This document shows, piece after piece, positions 2,305 to 16,952 of a DNA stretch of 34,135 bases. Where the stretch lies: UHGV virus genome UHGV-0125140; one strand, written 5' to 3'. How positions within the stretch are numbered: position 1 is the first letter of the stretch; each line of letters opens with the position of its first letter. The position numbers were made by a program, and so were the translations under genes. Under the pieces are notes generated by a model. The model saw only the letters and a list, made by a program, of their open reading frames with translations, was not told the DNA's origin and did not search any database. This stretch comes from a virus.

Positions 2305-2718
2305 TTAGTTTCTATAATCTTTACGTGTGAATTTCTTTTTGGCTTCTTCTTTGTTCATTTCCATCGCAGTACGTATAGCAATTAAAAGACGGTCTTTTTG
2401 TTCTTGAGTAGCTGGTTCACCGTAAAAATTAAGATTTTCGCCATTAGCTATCCCTTCAATTAATTCTTCTGCTTGAATAGCAATATCATTTTTCTCTTTA
2501 TCACTTAATTCATAGTATTTTTTCTTTTCGGTACGACCAAGTAAGTAATCGGTTGAGACGTCAAAAAAATCTGCAACTTTCTGTAATTTTTTTATTCCTG
2601 GTGGTTGCTTGTCCCATTTTCGAATACTACTTTGGCTGAAATCAAGTTTTCTCTCTAATTCTGTTAAAGTCATTTTCTTTTGTGAAGCTAGCATCTTTAT
2701 TCTATCTACAATACTCAA
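2305..2718 (-). CDS. XRE-family HTH repressor (cI-like)
   Basis: N-terminal HTH (KKMTLTELERKLDFSQSSIRKWDKQ) plus a C-terminal oligomerisation-like part. Divergent from the cro-like gene. Confidence 0.85.
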   Translation of the reverse strand: MSIVDRIKMLASQKKMTLTELERKLDFSQSSIRKWDKQPPGIKKLQKVADFFDVSTDYLLGRTEKKKYYELSDKEKNDIAIQAEELIEGIANGENLNFYGEPATQEQKDRLLIAIRTAMEMNKEEAKKKFTRKDYRN

Positions 2719-2749
2719 ATTAATTCACCTCTAAAAAAACCTAACAAAA

Positions 2750-2965
2750 AATCGGAATTTATTCTTGACAATCGGAATAAATTACTTTATGATATGTTTG
2801 TAGGAAAGATATTTAAGGTGTACAGAAAACTAAAGCAATATATAGACAGTCTCCCCAGACGTTAATATAGCTTGCTTTTTGTATGCTGTATTCCTTATAC
2901 CTACATTATGGAATATATTCCGATGTTTGTCAATAGGTTGGAATAATAAAAGTGAATAAATTACC
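2750..2965. promoter_or_regulatory. genetic switch region: repeated GGAATAnATTCC-type operator candidates (2753-2764, 2773-2784, perfect palindrome 2910-2921, partial 2954-2964) and a sigma70-like promoter TTGACA(2765-2770)-17 bp-TATGAT(2788-2793)
   Basis: The 8-mer ATCGGAAT occurs at 2751 and 2771, and inverted at 2917. GGAATATATTCC is a perfect palindrome. The -35/-10 pair overlaps the operators and lies between the divergent cI and cro genes. Confidence 0.55.
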
Positions 2966-2976
2966 ATGGGAAGAAG

Positions 2977-3186
2977 GTGTTACTTGTGATTTATGAAAAA
3001 ATTAAAAAGCTTGCTATTAGCAACCACGTTTCAATCAATCGAATTGAAAAAGATTTAGGATTTAGCTCTTCAACAATTTCCAAATGGAATAACTCTAATC
3101 CAACATCTGGTAAGTTGAAACAAGTTGCTGACTATTTTGGAGTATCTATGGAGTCTTTATTAGAAGATGAAAAGAAGGAGGCGTAG
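2977..3186 (+). CDS. Cro-like XRE-family HTH protein
   Basis: HTH (LAISNHVSINRIEKDLGFSSSTISKWNNS). Divergent from the repressor. The true start is probably GTG at 2986, preceded by GGAAGAAGG. Confidence 0.7.
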   Translation: MLLVIYEKIKKLAISNHVSINRIEKDLGFSSSTISKWNNSNPTSGKLKQVADYFGVSMESLLEDEKKEA

Positions 3187-13607: not shown

Positions 13608-13760
13608 CATGGGTAAGAAAAAATCAAAAATTAAAAAGAAAAAGCGTCGCATGCAAGAAAAAGCAATTGCAAACGGCACTCAAAATTCTAAAAAATAAAA
13701 AAAGTCGGAATCGCTCCGACCAACCATATCGATATTATAACATAAAAGGAGCGATTTAAC

Positions 13761-14177
13761 TTGATTCAATTGTTAAAAGAAGTTGATTTCAGTCAGACTA
13801 GAGCCAATGCGAGAGCCGTGTTGAAAAATTTTAGACGTTTGGACCGAATAGCTGGTCGTTCCTTAGTAGATGTTCGATCACCAATCATTACAGACATGCC
13901 CAAAGGTGTAAAGCATGGCAACAAAGCAGAAGATGCGTTGATCCAGATGATTGATGTCGAAGTAGAGCGTGATGCAATCCTAACGGCTTTGATGTCATTA
14001 AGCATAATAAGTCGTCAAATTCTTCACTACAGTTTCTGTGTGCAGGACCATTACTCTAATTACAAAATCGCCAGAGAAGTCGGCTATTCTGAAAGAAGTA
14101 TTCAAAGAATGAAATCAGAAGCTTTGATTGAATTTGCGGAAGCTTACCGAAACGGCAAAATAATTGCATATAAATAA
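13761..14177 (+). CDS. ArpU-family phage late transcriptional regulator
   Basis: 138 aa, TTG start after AAAGGAG. Sequence character matches the ArpU / late-activator family. Positioned as the last early gene before the packaging genes. Confidence 0.75.
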   Translation: MIQLLKEVDFSQTRANARAVLKNFRRLDRIAGRSLVDVRSPIITDMPKGVKHGNKAEDALIQMIDVEVERDAILTALMSLSIISRQILHYSFCVQDHYSNYKIAREVGYSERSIQRMKSEALIEFAEAYRNGKIIAYK

Positions 14178-14180
14178 TTT

Positions 14181-14239
14181 TTGGCGGTTTTTTGGCGGAA
14201 AGTTGGCGGTTTTTATCAATAATTAGTTGTTATTATGAT
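14181..14239 (+). promoter_or_regulatory. three TTGGCGG direct repeats phased at 11 bp (14181, 14192, 14203), followed by -10-like TATGAT (14234-14239): candidate activator-dependent late promoter
   Basis: Exact heptamer repeats spaced one helical turn apart start 4 bp after the ArpU stop. A -10 hexamer follows with no good -35. Confidence 0.45.
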
Positions 14240-14554
14240 AGTGTCGAAAGATAAGGAGACGAGGGTAAGGCATGCATTACCTATCTTAGCTCCGTTTCAC
14301 TTATCTTTTGAGGCTACCTATAAAAAATAAAGAATAAGGATGTGGAAAGTCCAGTTCTTTCTGTCTCGTTTAGTCATAGGTAGCAAATATTGCAATAAAC
14401 TTGGCATGAAGCTTACACGTAGACGTACGCCGAAAGCACTTGTCAAGATAGCGCTATGTAGTTTGCAATGATCACTCACAAATCAGACGTTCTCAAACTA
14501 AAAGAAATGGGGTGTAATTCCTCTCTCTTTTTTCTACAGGTTTGTGAGTGTTAA

Positions 14555-14626
14555 TGGGATATAGCTTAACTGGTAGAGCAGCGGTCTCCAAAACCGTCGG
14601 TATAGGTTCGAGTCCTATTGTTCCAG
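14555..14626 (+). tRNA. trnW: tRNA-Trp (anticodon CCA), no encoded 3' CCA
   Basis: Hand-folded cloverleaf: acceptor TGGGATA/TGTTCCA (two G:U pairs), D arm GCTT-AACTGGTA-GAGC, anticodon arm GCGGT-CTCCAAA-ACCGT, variable loop CGGT, T arm ATAGG-TTCGAGT-CCTAT, discriminator G. Closely parallels my recollection of Bacillus subtilis tRNA-Trp. Confidence 0.8.
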
Positions 14627-14796
14627 TAGGTAGCATAGCTACTTAAATAAAAGAATCGTCAATAAATGTTTCTTACTTTAACGATCGGTTCACCTCCTTT
14701 CAGAATTAGCCAGCCTGCGGAAACAGGATAAAGTGGCTAGCAACCTAGTATTGTTAAATAAGTGTTAGATTGGCTAGGCAGTCTAATATAAATCTT

Positions 14797-14829
14797 TAGA
14801 CTACTCAATAAAAATGAGTGGTCTTTTTT
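14797..14829 (+). terminator. rho-independent terminator (stem AGACTACTC/GAGTGGTCT, then a T7 run)
   Basis: 9-bp stem with one G:U pair, 9-nt loop, TTTTTTT tail. Confidence 0.6.
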
Positions 14830-14841
14830 TGTACATAAAAA

Positions 14842-14867
14842 AGCCACTAGACTATGGGATCTAGTGG
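14842..14867 (-). terminator. perfect 9-bp hairpin GCCACTAGA-N8-TCTAGTGGC preceded by an A-run (terminator-like when read on the minus strand)
   Basis: Inverted repeat visible in the sequence. An A6 run lies 5' on the plus strand, which is a T-run 3' on the minus strand. Confidence 0.4.
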
Positions 14868-14991
14868 CTAGGTAGCATTCGTGCACAATTTTTGTTGATT
14901 GCTATTTACAAAAAGGAGTTGCTACCCATAAATAGTATAGCAAGAAGTGATTTATTGAATCAAGTACATAAAACAGCTAGGAGAGAAAAAT

Positions 14992-15222
14992 ATGAAAAGC
15001 TATTGGTATGTATCGCTAACACATAAATATCCACAGTCGAACCGCTCAACTGTTTCAATGCGTGTTGTAATGTCTGTGCAGATAAAAAAGAATGCATCTA
15101 TTGTCGAAATGGCGAGAGAAGCCACGCCGAAGGAAATTGATGCGTGCAAGCTAGTTTATTGTGGTTATGGTAGTTGGAAAGATAAGCATATACAAGAGAA
15201 TATAGAAATGTATGTGAAGTGA
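14992..15222 (+). CDS. hypothetical protein (76 aa) immediately upstream of terS
   Basis: Good RBS (AGGAGAG, 7 nt spacer). Confidence 0.45.
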   Translation: MKSYWYVSLTHKYPQSNRSTVSMRVVMSVQIKKNASIVEMAREATPKEIDACKLVYCGYGSWKDKHIQENIEMYVK

Positions 15223-15244
15223 TAAATTATTAGACAGAAAGGCG

Positions 15245-15688
15245 GTGAATAACATGCGAATGACCGAGAAACAGAAACGATTTTGTGACTTTTACATCGA
15301 GACAGGAAATGCCAAAGAGGCTGCTATCAGAGCGGGATATAGCGAAAAGACTGCAAAGCAGATAGGACAGGAAAACTTGACTAAACCTGACCTCAGAGCT
15401 TATATAGACGAACGCCTCGCAGAACTGAAAAACGAACGAACAGCCGATGCCCAAGAGGTGCTAGAGTACCTAACAGCTGTTATGCGTGGCGAGTACAAAG
15501 AAGCAACGCTAATTGGTGTAGGCGAAGGCGCACAAGCCGTTGTAGACATCGATGTGGGCGCAAAAGACCGTTTAAAAGCAGCCGAGCTTCTTGGTAAACG
15601 TCATGCGCTGTTCACTGATAAAGTCGATTTACAAACGGGCGATATTGTGATTAAGGTTGGTGAGTGGGATGCAGACGAAGAAACGTAA
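15245..15688 (+). CDS. terS: terminase small subunit
   Basis: MTEKQKRFCDFYIETGNAKEAAIRAGYSEKTAKQIGQENLTKP is the classic P27/Terminase_2 N-terminal HTH. Confidence 0.85.
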   Translation: MNNMRMTEKQKRFCDFYIETGNAKEAAIRAGYSEKTAKQIGQENLTKPDLRAYIDERLAELKNERTADAQEVLEYLTAVMRGEYKEATLIGVGEGAQAVVDIDVGAKDRLKAAELLGKRHALFTDKVDLQTGDIVIKVGEWDADEET

Positions 15689-16952
15689 TATCGTTTTAGA
15701 GTTTAACTTCCCGTCAAGAGTTTTTAACAAATCGTTTTATGATCGATTGGTGGATTATTCTAAATTCACCGAGGTTTATTGGGGCGGCGCTTCATCTGGC
15801 AAAAGTCACGGTGTCGTTCAAAAGGTTGTTTTTAAAGCATGTCAAAGATGGAAGAAACCAAGAAAGATTTTATTTACAAGAAAAGTAGGGCGTAGCTTAA
15901 AAGACTCTATTTTCGAGGATGTGAAAGCGTGTCTTTCTGATTGGGGACTGCTAGATAAGTGTAAAGTAAATAACACTGATTTTAGAATCACGTTACCAAA
16001 CGGCGCAGAGTTTCTTTTCAAGGGAATGGATGACCCAGAGAAAATAAAATCCATCAAAGGGCTGTCTGACGTCGTGATGGAAGAAGCAACAGAATTTACA
16101 CTAGAAGATTATACACAGCTTACTTTGCGTTTACGTGAACGTAAGCATGTGAAACGTCAAATCTTTTTAATGTTTAACCCAGTTTCTAAACTGAACTGGG
16201 TATATAAATCTTTCTTTGATGAGGAAGCAGAAGTCGATCAACGAAGAACGGGTATTTATCACAGCACCTATAAAGACAATCGGTTTCTTGATAGTGAAAA
16301 TAAAAAGGTGATTGAGGATTTAGCCAAACGAAACCCAGCGTATTATCGCATATATGCTTTAGGAGAATTTGCTACGCTAGATAAACTTGTATTTCCAAAC
16401 TATCAGAGAAAACGATTAGACAAGCACGACGAACTGTTAAGACAGATTGATTCAGATTTTGGCTTAGACTTTGGGTATGTAAACGACCCTTCCGCTTTTG
16501 TGCATGCAAAGGTAGACGAGAAGAACAAACGTATTTATGTTCTTGAAGAATACGTCAAAAAAGGCTTGCTGAATGATGAAATCTCAACGGTTATTAAAGA
16601 TTTAGGCTATGCAAAAGAAGTTATCACTGCAGATTCAGCTGAAAAGAAATCTATTGCAGAAATCAAGAAGAACGGAATTACTAGAATACGTGCAGCTAAG
16701 AAAGGCCCTGATTCAATACGACAGGGGCTTTCTTTTTTATTGCAATATGAGCTAATCGTAGACGATCGTTGCGTAAAACTGATTGAGGAATTAGAAAACT
16801 ACACATGGGCTAAAGACAAGAAAACAGGGGAGTACACCAATGAACCTATTGATAGCTATAATCACGTGATAGATGCTTTACGATACGCAGTAGAACATCG
16901 TAGTAAAAAAGCACGAGGAATTAAGCTACAGAGCGTGAAGGGGGTTATTTAA
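15657..16952 (+). CDS. terL: terminase large subunit (PBSX / Terminase_3 family)
   Basis: 431 aa with a Walker A-like GGASSGKS and a C-terminal nuclease region. Overlaps the end of terS. ATG at 15669 is the likely start. Confidence 0.93.
   Translation: MVSGMQTKKRNIVLEFNFPSRVFNKSFYDRLVDYSKFTEVYWGGASSGKSHGVVQKVVFKACQRWKKPRKILFTRKVGRSLKDSIFEDVKACLSDWGLLDKCKVNNTDFRITLPNGAEFLFKGMDDPEKIKSIKGLSDVVMEEATEFTLEDYTQLTLRLRERKHVKRQIFLMFNPVSKLNWVYKSFFDEEAEVDQRRTGIYHSTYKDNRFLDSENKKVIEDLAKRNPAYYRIYALGEFATLDKLVFPNYQRKRLDKHDELLRQIDSDFGLDFGYVNDPSAFVHAKVDEKNKRIYVLEEYVKKGLLNDEISTVIKDLGYAKEVITADSAEKKSIAEIKKNGITRIRAAKKGPDSIRQGLSFLLQYELIVDDRCVKLIEELENYTWAKDKKTGEYTNEPIDSYNHVIDALRYAVEHRSKKARGIKLQSVKGVI

What the first reader, a model, noticed from the sequence alone, without database searches (positions are those of the whole stretch)
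14245..14990. Unusually long (~0.8 kb) structured non-coding region between the late regulator and terS, with an embedded tRNA-Trp
Phage genomes are tightly packed, yet there is no ORF here until 14992. The region instead holds four groups of elements. (a) Nested stem-loops at 14249-14306: outer stem AGATAAG/CTTATCT, middle stem GGAG/CTCC, inner stem GGTAA-ggcatgca-TTACC, followed by TTTT. (b) A perfect 10-bp long-range inverted repeat CACTCACAAA (14473-14482) / TTTGTGAGTG (14541-14550) closing a 58-nt loop that ends 4 nt before the tRNA. (c) A tRNA-Trp(CCA) at 14555-14626 with G:U pairs in the acceptor stem and no encoded CCA. (d) Further nested hairpins and three TGGCTAG motifs (14743, 14771, 14863), a plus-strand terminator (14797-14829) and a perfect 9-bp hairpin (14842-14867). 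This could be a processed late leader or sRNA cluster that delivers a tRNA, an attenuation or antitermination switch for late genes, or part of the packaging-recognition region. The embedded terminator suggests that read-through into terS is regulated.
Basis: seen in the sequence. Interest (0 to 1): 0.6.

Follow-up and report, generated by a model that had tools for sequence, protein, structure and literature searches.

The report
Phage late-gene leader carrying a tRNA
This 0.8-kb gap in an Enterococcus faecalis temperate phage is most likely the untranslated start of the late-gene transcript, which begins at a published ArpU activator site and carries a tRNA-Trp between conserved RNA hairpins, ends in a terminator and is followed by an undescribed antisense small-RNA gene; related phages hold other tRNAs or the large ROOL RNA at the same spot.

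Summary
Window 14178-14991 is non-coding, strongly structured, and contains a canonical tRNA-Trp(CCA) at 14555-14626.

What is there:
- Three TTGGCGG repeats (14181-14209), identical to the published ArpU-binding repeats of phage phiFL2A, followed by an extended -10.
- A leader that starts with a 5'-terminal hairpin.
- A conserved, covarying stem-loop ("module C", 14471-14552) that ends 2 nt before the tRNA.
- The CCA-less tRNA and a conserved trailer hairpin.
- A plus-strand terminator.
- A minus-strand small-RNA gene (about 14928 to 14833) with its own promoter and terminator. It belongs to a covarying family that is not in Rfam.

In about 200 related phage loci the same slot holds Trp, Asn, Lys, Glu or Arg-like tRNAs, tRNA-like elements, an unidentified 385-nt RNA, or ROOL RNA. 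The unit almost always ends in a terminator.

Best reading: an ArpU-driven late leader that delivers a swappable non-coding-RNA cargo. Late genes are reached by read-through of the terminator. Whether that read-through is leaky or actively antiterminated is unresolved. A packaging site is unlikely. This is a new variant of known kinds and moderately interesting.

The parts
13761..14177 (+). arpU, the late-gene transcriptional regulator
   Evidence: NCBIfam TIGR01637 phage_arpU, 131 bits, E 3e-38. phrog_248 transcriptional activator. 94-95% DNA identity to the phiEf11 arpU region.
14181..14209 (+). Three TTGGCGG direct repeats spaced 11 nt apart: the ArpU binding site
   Evidence: Exact copies at 14181, 14192 and 14203. 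The same three repeats are in phiFL2A (L004 2503-2531). In phiFL2A they were required for ArpU-dependent terS::blaZ expression, and the repeat-containing region was bound by ArpU in gel shifts (PMC3753634).
14228..14236 (+). Extended -10 of the late promoter (TG-t-TATTAT); transcription start inferred at about 14243-14246
   Evidence: Read from the sequence. The same register holds in phiFL2A (TG-c-TAATAT, then 7 nt, then TCGAAAG) and in a second phage group with a different regulator (GTTATTATGATAGTGTCA). The block conserved in all relatives ends at 14250. The start site is inferred, not mapped.
14244..14311 (+).
   Evidence: -26.9 kcal/mol, z = -4.35. All three leader types begin with a long hairpin whose 5' arm is the conserved UC(G/A)AAA next to the promoter, although the rest of the sequence differs.
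14313..14384 (+). Second leader hairpin closed by GCUACCUAU / AUAGGUAGC
   Evidence: z = -3.58. Conserved in 23 distinct window-type leaders, but they are too similar to show covariation.
14471..14552 (+). Module C: a conserved stem-loop. Outer stem 14471-14484 / 14539-14552; inner hairpin GGGG / CCUC 14509-14523; then an invariant CUCUUUUUUCUACAGG
   Evidence: 30 distinct sequences: 92.9% of cells paired against 40-54% when the partner is slid, 6 pairs with compensatory changes, and many G.U pairs that only work on the plus strand. Present in nearly all of about 200 related loci. It ends 2 nt before the tRNA in the window; in relatives it lies 4-9 nt before the tRNA (Trp, Asn), about 6 nt before ROOL, or directly before the 385-nt RNA 'X'.
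14555..14626 (+). tRNA-Trp (anticodon CCA), U1-A72, G73, no encoded CCA
   Evidence: ARAGORN. Rfam 65.6 bits. 24 distinct variants keep 99.4% of cloverleaf pairs. Acceptor pairs 4-6 vary among G.U, A-U and G-C yet stay 100% paired.
14627..14692 (+). Conserved tRNA trailer: U, then hairpin AGGUAGC-AUA-GCUACUU (14628-14644), then AAAUAAA, the AUCGUCAAUA motif and a second hairpin
   Evidence: The same trailer follows Trp, Asn, Lys, Glu and Arg-like tRNAs. The hairpin is 98.2% paired in 16 variants, mostly through wobble changes. Fold z = -3.0.
14689..14701 (+). UUCACCUCCUUUC, a pyrimidine tract resembling the 3' end of 16S rRNA (anti-Shine-Dalgarno mimic)
   Evidence: Read from the sequence. The resemblance to 16S rRNA is from memory. 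Function unknown.
14706..14789 (+). Two hairpins that carry two of the three TGGCTAG motifs
   Evidence: Fold. The motif is enriched. The block is 94% conserved after different tRNAs in L028, L044, L049, L055 and L065. Function unknown.
14798..14831 (+). Plus-strand intrinsic terminator that closes the cargo unit
   Evidence: 10-bp stem plus U7, -12.9 kcal/mol. 159 of 179 related leaders have a terminator 43-170 nt after the trailer, with at least five unrelated stem sequences.
14833..14928 (-). Candidate small RNA of about 95 nt: 5' GGUAGCA pairs with UGCUACC, an exposed CAACUCCUUUUUG, then terminator hairpin 14869-14842 and a U-run
   Evidence: Fold -31.2 kcal/mol, z = -4.59. Minus-strand terminator. 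177 family members and 66 distinct sequences in related loci. 10 of 18 pairs show compensatory changes; 92% paired against 20-55% slid. No Rfam family; best hit RsaD, 22 bits, E 0.22.
14934..14963 (-). Promoter of the minus-strand small RNA (TTGATT, 18 nt, TG-c-TATACT)
   Evidence: Promoter scan. Two unrelated upstream sequences in relatives both place an extended -10 6-7 nt before GGUAGCA.
14992..15222 (+). First ORF after the leader (76 aa, function unknown); not terS
   Evidence: phrog_1202, E 2.3e-39. No Pfam or NCBIfam hit.
15245..15688 (+). terS (small terminase), followed by terL at 15657-16952
   Evidence: Pfam Terminase_2, 1.5e-36; Terminase_3, 1.1e-67.

Best explanation
The region is the ArpU-dependent late promoter and the long untranslated leader of the late (packaging, structural, lysis) operon of an Enterococcus faecalis temperate phage.

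Proposed sequence of events:
1. ArpU binds the three TTGGCGG repeats just past its own stop codon. It activates an extended -10 promoter, and transcription starts at about 14243-14246.
2. The RNA begins with a 5'-terminal hairpin. It runs through about 220 nt of structured leader into a conserved stem-loop (module C), the tRNA-Trp, a conserved trailer hairpin, further hairpins and an intrinsic terminator at 14798-14831.
3. The tRNA is cut out by host RNase P and RNase Z and receives CCA from the host CCA-adding enzyme.
4. Module C is left as a 3'-terminal stem on the upstream fragment, and the trailer hairpin as a 5'-terminal stem on the downstream fragment. I infer that both protect the fragments from exonucleases.
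5. Most transcripts stop at the terminator, giving a large amount of tRNA. The fraction that reads through expresses the 76-aa gene, terS, terL and the rest of the late operon.

The stretch from module C to the terminator behaves as an exchangeable non-coding-RNA cargo cassette. Relatives carry other tRNAs, tRNA-like elements, an unidentified 385-nt RNA or ROOL RNA there.

Between the terminator and the first late ORF, a minus-strand gene makes a small RNA of about 95 nt that is antisense to the leader. I infer that it dampens stray late transcripts in lysogens.

Shown here or in the literature: the ArpU site (published for identical repeats), the tRNA, the conserved and covarying structures, the terminators, and the cargo exchange.

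Inferred: the transcription start site, co-transcription of the leader with the late genes, processing of the tRNA, the protective role of the hairpins, the read-through mechanism, and the role of the small RNA.

Why a tRNA-Trp is carried is unknown. Simple codon supply looks weak. Replacing tRNA that is cleaved or depleted late in infection is my preferred guess, at about one chance in three.
For: Promoter and regulator:
- arpU is identified by TIGR01637 at 131 bits.
- The three repeats are exact at 14181, 14192 and 14203, and there is no other cluster before terS.
- They are identical to the phiFL2A repeats. There the repeats were required for ArpU-dependent terS::blaZ expression from about 790 nt upstream, and ArpU bound the repeat-containing region in gel shifts (PMC3753634).
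- arpU plus 75 nt is conserved in nearly all 86 loci, and the conservation stops at 14250.
- The promoter scan found no plus-strand sigma-70-like promoter in 13700-15400.

Leader structures:
- A 5' hairpin starts at the conserved UC(G/A)AAA in three otherwise different leader types.
- Module C covaries, with G.U pairs specific to the plus strand.
- The trailer hairpin is conserved behind five or more tRNA types.
- The whole leader folds with z = -5.3.
- The region is non-coding.

tRNA:
- ARAGORN and Rfam both call it.
- The cloverleaf is kept in 24 distinct variants.

Cargo exchange:
- tRNA identities differ among relatives.
- ROOL RNA sits in the same slot in L033.
- Locus L029 has no cargo, no module C and no terminator: the promoter is followed by a hairpin and then a ribosome-binding site.
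- A second phage group has a different regulator and different repeats but the same -10, module C, tRNA-Trp, trailer and terminator.

Terminator: it is kept by function rather than by sequence in 159 of 179 leaders.

Small RNA.

Codon supply is weak: late proteins contain 0.95% Trp against 1.78% in early proteins, and Trp has only one codon.
Against: - No transcript data were available. The start site, co-transcription and processing are all inferred.
- A competent intrinsic terminator (-12.9 kcal/mol, U7) lies between the promoter and the late genes. The model therefore needs leakiness or antitermination, and neither was shown.
- The phiFL2A reporter experiments were done in Staphylococcus aureus on plasmids, and they did not map the transcript.
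- The covariation in module C rests on about three sequence lineages, and some members carry an A.G mismatch in the stem.
- The trailer hairpin shows mostly wobble changes. Its shuffle control is not striking: percent paired was reached by 6 of 500 shuffles and the covariation score by 54 of 500.
- The window-type leader hairpins are too conserved to test.
- The IMG/VR loci are related prophages, not independent samples.
- Aminoacylation of the tRNA was not tested, and it was not compared with the host tRNA-Trp.
Confidence: 0.7

Rival explanations
1. The leader is mainly a read-through control device. Transcription from the ArpU promoter becomes termination-resistant. This could happen because module C acts on RNA polymerase in cis, like the put RNA of phage HK022 or a nut site (boxA-like CGUUCUCAA followed by a 5-bp stem with a purine-rich pentaloop in the phiFL type). 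It could also happen because ArpU loads onto polymerase at the promoter as lambda Q does. The tRNA would then be a passenger.
For: - The only ArpU-box cluster is about 0.8-1 kb upstream of the late ORFs.
- A terminator of variable sequence sits between them in about 90% of relatives.
- Module C and the terminator are present or absent together: L029 has neither.
- Module C is a conserved plus-strand RNA structure near the 5' end of the leader.
- Reporter fusions that include the leader cannot tell activation apart from antitermination (PMC3753634).
Against: - The boxA-like segment is missing from the third module C type (L006 type).
- The pentaloop is not kept: the window has a 7-nt loop.
- The resemblance to nut and put sites is recalled from memory and was not tested.
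- The published work describes Ltr proteins as activators that bind the repeats.
- Module C could equally be a processing or stability element.
- Leaky termination would be enough.
Confidence: 0.2
2. Apart from the promoter and the tRNA, the region is recombination debris: a mosaic of joints and decayed elements left by repeated module exchange, with hairpins that have no function of their own.
For: - Relatives are strongly mosaic, with sharp module boundaries.
- Some loci carry duplicated module C copies flanking an inserted ORF.
- The terminator hairpin has an inverted loop in some relatives.
- Segment 14390-14470 folds no better than shuffled sequence, z = 0.05.
Against: - Module C, the trailer hairpin and the minus-strand small RNA keep their base pairing through sequence change.
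- A terminator is kept by function in spite of sequence replacement.
- The 5' hairpin recurs in three unrelated leader sequences.
- The overall fold has z = -5.3.
Confidence: 0.1
3. The tRNA is an independent gene with its own constitutive promoter. It could be a moron (an accessory gene with its own control signals) expressed in lysogens, possibly needed because integration damages a host tRNA gene (tRNA-dependent lysogeny). In that case it would only happen to lie between arpU and terS.
For: - The unit ends in its own terminator, as morons do.
- tRNA-dependent lysogeny has been described for mycobacteriophages (PMC10865867, listed; only the abstract was read).
Against: - No plus-strand sigma-70-like promoter was found between the ArpU promoter and the tRNA.
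- Module C, directly upstream of the tRNA, has no conserved -10 or -35.
- The tRNA sits in the same place relative to the late promoter in two phage groups that have different regulators.
- The slot holds non-tRNA cargo in some relatives, which does not fit complementation of a damaged host tRNA.
Confidence: 0.07
4. The region is, or contains, the pac or cos packaging recognition site.
For: It lies just upstream of terS and is rich in repeats and hairpins.
Against: - The same leader block (89-96% identical) is joined to non-homologous terS genes in L012, L018, L041 and L068-L081.
- The window's own terS (98% identical) is joined to a different leader with tRNA-Asn in L086.
- G.U pairs in the conserved stems work only on plus-strand RNA, so they are not DNA palindromes.
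- The terminase is of the Terminase_2 / Terminase_3 type. In phages such as SPP1 and P22 the pac site is usually inside or next to terS; this point is from memory.
Confidence: 0.03

Closest known systems
Ltr (ArpU / RinA / LtrC) late-promoter regions of temperate phages of Gram-positive bacteria (Quiles-Puchalt et al. 2013, PMC3753634; Ferrer et al. 2011, PMC3152322)
   Same: An ArpU-family gene is followed directly by three 7-nt direct repeats. The repeats are identical to those shown to be the ArpU site in phiFL2A, and the unit lies upstream of terS.
   Different: The published work treats what follows the repeats only as 'the intergenic region'. In the passages I read, neither the tRNA, module C, the trailer, the terminator, the exchangeable cargo nor the antisense small RNA is described. 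In the staphylococcal phages the gap is short.
Phage-encoded tRNA genes (T4 and T5 tRNA clusters, mycobacteriophage tRNAs; van den Berg et al. 2023, PMC10264068)
   Same: A phage carries a canonical tRNA with a conserved cloverleaf. Counter-defence against tRNA-cleaving host systems is one proposed role.
   Different: Here there is a single tRNA embedded in the late-operon leader. It sits between conserved flanking hairpins, in a fixed slot where close relatives carry a different tRNA or a different RNA. No anticodon-loop difference from the host could be checked.
Lambda PR' - 6S RNA - tR' with Q antitermination; HK022 put RNA; lambda nut sites
   Same: A late promoter is followed by a leader with an intrinsic terminator ahead of the late genes, and a structured RNA element lies near the 5' end of the leader.
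   Different: The regulator belongs to a different, sigma-like family that is described as an activator. No antitermination has been shown. Sequence resemblance to boxA and boxB is partial and absent in one module C type.
ROOL and GOLLD large RNAs of prophages, often next to tRNAs (Weinberg et al. 2017, PMC5737381; Kretsch et al. 2025, PMC12286853)
   Same: In relatives (L033 and others) a ROOL RNA occupies the slot where the window has its tRNA: after module C and before a tRNA-like element, the trailer and a terminator.
   Different: The window has no ROOL. Nothing reaches threshold even with relaxed filters.
tRNA-mRNA co-transcripts such as the E. coli thrU-tyrU-glyT-thrT-tufB operon, and 5' stem-loop mRNA stabilisers of Bacillus subtilis (aprE and ermC leaders); both from memory
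   Same: tRNAs are transcribed ahead of protein-coding genes and removed by RNase P and 3' processing. A hairpin within a few nucleotides of a 5' end protects against 5' exonuclease.
   Different: Processing and stabilisation are inferred here, not shown. A terminator also lies between the tRNA and the coding genes.
Convergent type I toxin-antitoxin pairs (par RNA I / RNA II of pAD1, txpA / RatA)
   Same: Face-to-face terminators, with a small structured antisense RNA that has its own promoter.
   Different: There is no small hydrophobic toxin ORF with a ribosome-binding site on either strand. There is no Rfam match to RatA or to Fst-type antitoxins in the window.

Membership tests
tRNA (Rfam RF00005) | Cloverleaf scoring above the family's gathering score | tested here: met
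   65.6 bits against 29, full-length match to model positions 1-71. ARAGORN calls tRNA-Trp CCA.
tRNA (Rfam RF00005) | Base pairing kept under selection among homologues | tested here: met
   24 distinct variants: 99.4% of cells paired against 31-64% when slid. The acceptor stem is 100% paired in spite of variation at pairs 4-6.
tRNA (Rfam RF00005) | Canonical 7-nt anticodon loop (U33, purine 37) and a G73 discriminator as expected for bacterial tRNA-Trp | tested here: met
   The loop is CUCCAAA and the last base is G. The identity rule is from memory.
tRNA (Rfam RF00005) | Expressed, processed and aminoacylated | not testable with these tools
   Needs Northern blots and acid-gel or tRNA sequencing.
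ArpU (Ltr) late promoter | An ArpU-family regulator gene directly upstream | tested here: met
   TIGR01637, 131 bits.
ArpU (Ltr) late promoter | Three 7-nt direct repeats directly after the regulator's stop codon, matching the experimentally defined site | tested here: met
   TTGGCGG three times at 14181-14209, identical to phiFL2A (PMC3753634).
ArpU (Ltr) late promoter | ArpU binding and ArpU-dependent transcription of the late genes | not testable with these tools
   Shown only for phiFL2A in the literature.
Intrinsic (factor-independent) terminator | G+C-containing stem-loop followed directly by a U-run | tested here: met
   Plus strand 14798-14824 with U7; minus strand 14869-14842 with U6. 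Energies -12.9 and -17.2 kcal/mol.
ROOL RNA (RF03087) | Match to the covariance model | tested here: not met
   No hit in the window at the gathering score or at E <= 5. Relatives such as L033 score 263 bits.
Any other described RNA family (riboswitch, T-box, ribozyme, known small RNA) | Match to an Rfam 15 model | tested here: not met
   Only sub-threshold chance-level hits; the best is RsaD at 22 bits against a gathering score of 50.
Type I toxin-antitoxin locus | A small hydrophobic toxin ORF with a ribosome-binding site, overlapped by or convergent with the antisense RNA | tested here: not met
   ORFs of 20 aa or more in 14240-14991 include none of that kind, and the variable middle of the small RNA carries indels.
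pac / cos packaging site | Co-inheritance with the cognate terminase | tested here: not met
   The leader and terS assort independently among relatives.
nut / put-type antitermination RNA | A cis RNA element that makes polymerase read through downstream terminators | not testable with these tools
   Only the layout is compatible. There is no model or assay for it here.

The most novel reading that the evidence does not exclude
The ArpU late leader of Enterococcus phages is a dedicated, exchangeable slot for non-coding-RNA weapons. The cargo is made in bulk at the start of late transcription. It includes tRNAs whose anticodons switch on a shared scaffold, tRNA-like decoys, an unknown 385-nt RNA and ROOL. 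Its purpose would be to replace or shield the translation machinery from tRNA-targeting host defences. The late genes behind the cassette's terminator would be reached only because the ArpU promoter or module C sets up processive antitermination. This would give ROOL a defined expression context and a functional class. The tandem antisense small RNAs would be a second layer that silences late leaders, either the phage's own or those of related superinfecting phages.
Probability: 0.15. Interest if true: 0.85.

Novelty: new variant of a known kind. Interest (0 to 1): 0.55.

Why it matters
- It explains a conspicuous 0.5-1 kb 'empty' gap found in Enterococcus temperate phages, including phiEf11 and phiFL1-3. 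The tRNAs in that gap are not annotated in the GenBank records of those four phages.
- It ties the published ArpU late promoter to a cargo of non-coding RNA.
- It shows that ROOL RNA, whose function is unknown, can occupy the same late-leader slot as ordinary tRNAs. That gives a concrete and genetically tractable place to test what ROOL and single phage tRNAs do.
- It raises a testable problem in late-gene control: a conserved terminator lies between the only activator site and the late genes.
- It adds two structured RNA families with covariation support that are not in Rfam: module C and the antisense small RNA.

Tried and rejected
- Rfam with relaxed filters on 14100-15300 gave nothing beyond the tRNA.
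- PHROG searches gave no match for the two small ORFs tested, 14235-14330 and 14340-14471. The 43-aa ORF is not conserved.
- A type I toxin was sought and not found.
- A scan of the window for a trans target of the antisense small RNA found only its own antisense site.
- A scan of 185,579 species genomes for the module C core returned 60 hits in unrelated taxa and none in Enterococcus. I estimate this is what chance would give for an 18-19-nt pattern in 596 Gb, so it says nothing about distribution.
- Codon supply as the reason for the tRNA-Trp is disfavoured: late proteins are not Trp-rich.
- Covariation in the window-type leader hairpins 14244-14467 could not be judged because the sequences are too similar.
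- A literature search for the Firmicute boxA sequence returned irrelevant papers, so the boxA resemblance stays an untested recollection.
- The two E. faecalis transcriptome-map papers contained nothing about this locus in the text I could search.
- One fuzzy-regex script timed out.
- The host tRNA-Trp could not be retrieved, so the phage and host anticodon loops were not compared.
Full report
**Source and context.** The window comes from a temperate Enterococcus faecalis phage of the phiEf11 / phiFL kind. The arpU region is 94-95% identical to phiEf11, and weaker matches fall in phiFL1-3, SEsuP-1 and IME197. The gene at 13761-14177 is an ArpU-family late regulator (TIGR01637, 131 bits; phrog_248). 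The first ORF after the gap, 14992-15222, is a 76-aa protein of unknown function (phrog_1202). terS (Terminase_2) is 15245-15688 and terL is 15657-16952. The non-coding gap is 14178-14991, 814 nt.

**Check of the observation.**
- Every listed element exists. Two TGGCTAG positions are a few bases off: the true positions are 14734 and 14865.
- ARAGORN and Rfam agree on tRNA-Trp(CCA) at 14555-14626 (65.6 bits against a gathering score of 29).
- The leader 14243-14991 folds far better than shuffled sequence (z = -5.3). So do several sub-regions: 14243-14316 has z = -4.35, 14310-14390 has z = -3.58, and the minus strand of 14830-14930 has z = -4.59.
- The region is non-coding. The two small ORFs tested have no PHROG match. 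The longest plus-strand ORF is disrupted by stops and by indels of 1, 2, 5 and 7 nt in most homologues.

**The promoter is known.** Three exact TTGGCGG repeats lie at 14181, 14192 and 14203, 11 nt apart, starting 4 nt after the arpU stop codon. There is no other cluster before terS. phiFL2A has the same three repeats (L004). Quiles-Puchalt et al. (PMC3753634) showed three things for that phage:
- arpU is needed for phage production.
- The three repeats are required for ArpU-dependent expression of a terS::blaZ fusion.
- ArpU shifts the repeat-containing DNA in gel-shift assays.

In phiFL2A the repeats are about 790 nt upstream of terS. Downstream of the repeats the window has TG-t-TATTAT (14228-14236). 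phiFL2A has TG-c-TAATAT in the same register, and in both the conserved TCGAAAG follows 7 nt later. Across 86 related loci, sequence conservation runs from arpU to 14250 and then breaks. From this I infer a transcription start at about 14243-14246.

**Comparative anatomy.** I collected 80 IMG/VR loci with an ArpU homologue, six GenBank phages and 119 more loci through a module C pattern. The gap is a mosaic of modules.

(1) *5' hairpin.* A 5'-terminal hairpin starts at the conserved UC(G/A)AAA in three otherwise unrelated leader types.

- It is present in nearly all loci, including a variant in phiFL3B that my pattern missed.
- In 30 distinct sequences the proposed pairs are 92.9% formed, against 40-54% when the partner is slid. 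Six pairs show compensatory changes (CACUCACAAA/UUUGUGAGUG, CACUUGCAGA/UUUGCAAGUG, CUCUCGCAAA/UUUGCGAGAG).
- Many G.U pairs exist only on the plus strand, so this is an RNA structure rather than a DNA palindrome.
- Caveats: there are only about three lineages, and some members have an A.G mismatch.

(3) *The cargo.* Nearly every locus has one plus-strand tRNA, but its identity varies: Trp-CCA, Asn-GUU, Lys-UUU, Glu-UUC, Arg-like UCG/ACG, Gln-like and Asp-like. Some loci instead carry one of the following:
- ROOL RNA, at L033 3810-4388 (263 bits), about 6 nt after module C;
- an unidentified 385-nt RNA 'X' plus a tRNA-like element, in 58 loci;
- rli28 and RatA.

(4) *The trailer.* All cargo tRNAs lack an encoded CCA. 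Each is followed by U, a 6-7-bp hairpin, UUAAAUAAA and AUCGUCAAUA. The hairpin is 98% paired in 16 variants, mostly through wobble changes.

(5) *The terminator.* A plus-strand intrinsic terminator follows 43-170 nt later in 159 of 179 leaders, with at least five unrelated stem sequences. Termination at that position, rather than the sequence, is what is conserved.

(6) *A second phage group.* It has a different regulator and different repeats, but the same -10, 5' hairpin, module C, tRNA-Trp, trailer and terminator.

(7) *A locus without cargo.* L029 has no cargo, no module C and no terminator. The promoter is followed by a hairpin and then a ribosome-binding site. Module C and the terminator therefore travel with the cargo.

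**The tRNA.** Twenty-four distinct Trp variants keep 99.4% of cloverleaf pairs. Acceptor pairs 4-6 change among G.U, A-U and G-C without ever breaking. The anticodon loop is canonical and the discriminator is G. Late proteins contain 0.95% Trp against 1.78% in early proteins, and Trp has a single codon. Codon compensation is therefore a weak reason for carrying it. The range of cargo anticodons (Lys, Glu, Gln, Arg, Asn, Asp, Trp) overlaps the known targets of anticodon nucleases; that overlap is recalled from memory and is only suggestive.

**The minus-strand small RNA.** The hairpin at 14842-14869 has its U-run on the minus strand. Upstream on that strand lies TTGATT, 18 nt, TG-c-TATACT (14963-14934). 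In relatives two unrelated upstream sequences both place an extended -10 6-7 nt before GGUAGCA.
- The predicted RNA of about 95 nt pairs its 5' GGUAGCA with UGCUACC just before the terminator. This leaves CAACUCCUUUUUG exposed.
- nhmmer found 177 members (66 distinct) in the fetched loci, often in tandem arrays of 2-3.
- Ten of 18 pairs show compensatory changes, and 92% of cells are paired against 20-55% when slid. U.G pairs in some terminators fit only the minus strand.
- It matches no Rfam family. No toxin ORF accompanies it. No trans target stands out in the window.
- It is fully antisense to the leader between the plus-strand terminator and the first late ORF.

**Mechanism.** *Shown, here or in the literature:* the ArpU site, the tRNA, the conserved structures, the terminators and the exchange of cargo. 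*Inferred:*
- ArpU-dependent transcription starts at about 14244 and produces the structured leader.
- RNase P and RNase Z release the CCA-less tRNA. A U after the discriminator suits RNase Z in Bacillus; this point is from memory.
- Module C and the trailer hairpin then become terminal stems that protect the two flanking fragments.
- Most transcripts stop at 14831, and the remainder read through to the late genes.
- The antisense RNA limits stray late transcripts in lysogens.

The open point is how the terminator is passed. It may simply be leaky. Alternatively there may be antitermination set up by module C or by ArpU. The available reporter data cannot separate activation from antitermination, because the fusions included the leader.

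**Alternatives.**
- A pac or cos role is unlikely. The same leader is joined to unrelated terS genes, and the window's terS is joined to a different leader.
- An independent, constitutively expressed tRNA gene is unlikely, because no plus-strand promoter was found and the slot also holds non-tRNA cargo.
- 'Recombination debris' does not explain base pairing that is kept through sequence change.

**Novelty.** The ArpU site is published, and phage tRNAs are common. I did not find the following described in the papers I read, and none is in Rfam 15:
- the fixed late-leader slot with its conserved flanks and terminator;
- the exchange of tRNA, tRNA-like and ROOL cargo within it;
- module C;
- the antisense small-RNA family.

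For the window itself this is a new variant of known kinds. Module C was found only in Enterococcus-phage-like contigs. The scan of species genomes gave only chance-level hits.

Noticed in passing
L033 3810-4388 (also L047, L053, L062 and six further loci): ROOL RNA (RF03087, 263 bits) lies in the ArpU late leader about 6 nt after module C, where the window has tRNA-Trp. It is followed by about 350 nt of unknown RNA, a degenerate tRNA-like element, the usual trailer and a terminator.
   Followed up: partly
L004 (phiFL2A) 2717-3100; 58 loci in all: An unidentified RNA segment of about 385 nt ('X') lies between module C and an Arg-like tRNA. It has no Rfam hit, folds with z = -2.5, and shares the hairpin CAUGCAAGGUGCAAAUCCUUGCCAG with other cargo types (L042, L033). 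It is the commonest cargo in this phage group.
   Followed up: partly
Cargo tRNAs of L004-L205: There are two tRNA scaffolds. One carries Trp-CCA or Asn-GUU. The other (UGGCGUG...CACGCCA-A) carries Lys-UUU, Glu-UUC (2 nt apart in the loop), Arg-like UCG/ACG and Gln-like UUG (all with U37), an 8-nt-loop variant, and degenerate forms that ARAGORN does not call (L042 3974-4046). The anticodon appears to switch on a shared scaffold. One Trp copy has mutated to anticodon CGA.
   Followed up: partly
L079 4320-4499 (+) and 4543-4629 (-): Listeria-type small RNA rli28 (148 bits) and the type I antitoxin RNA RatA (50 bits) sit in the same arpU-to-terS gap, after tRNA-Trp and an Asp-like tRNA.
   Followed up: no
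L033 5016-5450; L011 4215-4700: The minus-strand small-RNA gene occurs as tandem arrays of 2-3 diverged copies. Each has its own extended -10 and terminator, and the closing stems covary between copies (GGUAGCA/UGCUACC, AGACAGCA/UGCUGUCU, GGCAG/CUGCC).
   Followed up: partly
L028 4125-4250, L150 1189-1315, L042 5787-5931: In some copies the loop of the small-RNA terminator hairpin is inverted (CUAUGGG instead of CCCAUAG), as if the palindrome had flipped by recombination.
   Followed up: no
L088, L099, L107, L139, L141: A second Enterococcus phage group has a different late regulator (C-terminus ...ALELVAFK) and different direct repeats (TACACTT-like), but the same -10 (GTTATTATGATAGTGTC), 5' hairpin, module C, tRNA-Trp, trailer and terminator.
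   Followed up: partly
L027 3554-3627 and 4225-4306 (also L006, L034, L043): Two copies of module C flank an inserted ORF of about 87-109 aa with unknown function. The second copy is followed after 4 nt by the tRNA.
   Followed up: no
L029 2330-2460: A minimal late leader: ArpU repeats, -10, one hairpin, then the ribosome-binding site of the first late gene. It has no tRNA, no module C and no terminator.
   Followed up: no
GenBank records GQ452243 (phiEf11), GQ478081 (phiFL1A), GQ478084 (phiFL2A), GQ478087 (phiFL3B): The tRNAs in this gap (Asn, Asn, Arg-like, Arg-like) are not annotated in these records. Only SEsuP-1 annotates its tRNA-Asn.
   Followed up: yes
window 14689-14701: UUCACCUCCUUUC closely resembles the 3' end of 16S rRNA (the anti-Shine-Dalgarno sequence). 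Pyrimidine-rich CCUCC or CCUUC tracts sit at the same place before the terminator in other leader types.
   Followed up: no
window 14312-14928: All three exact copies and two of the seven one-mismatch copies of TAGGTAGCA in the 34-kb window fall within 620 nt. They form the arms of three different hairpins, which allows alternative long-range pairings in a full-length leader.
   Followed up: no
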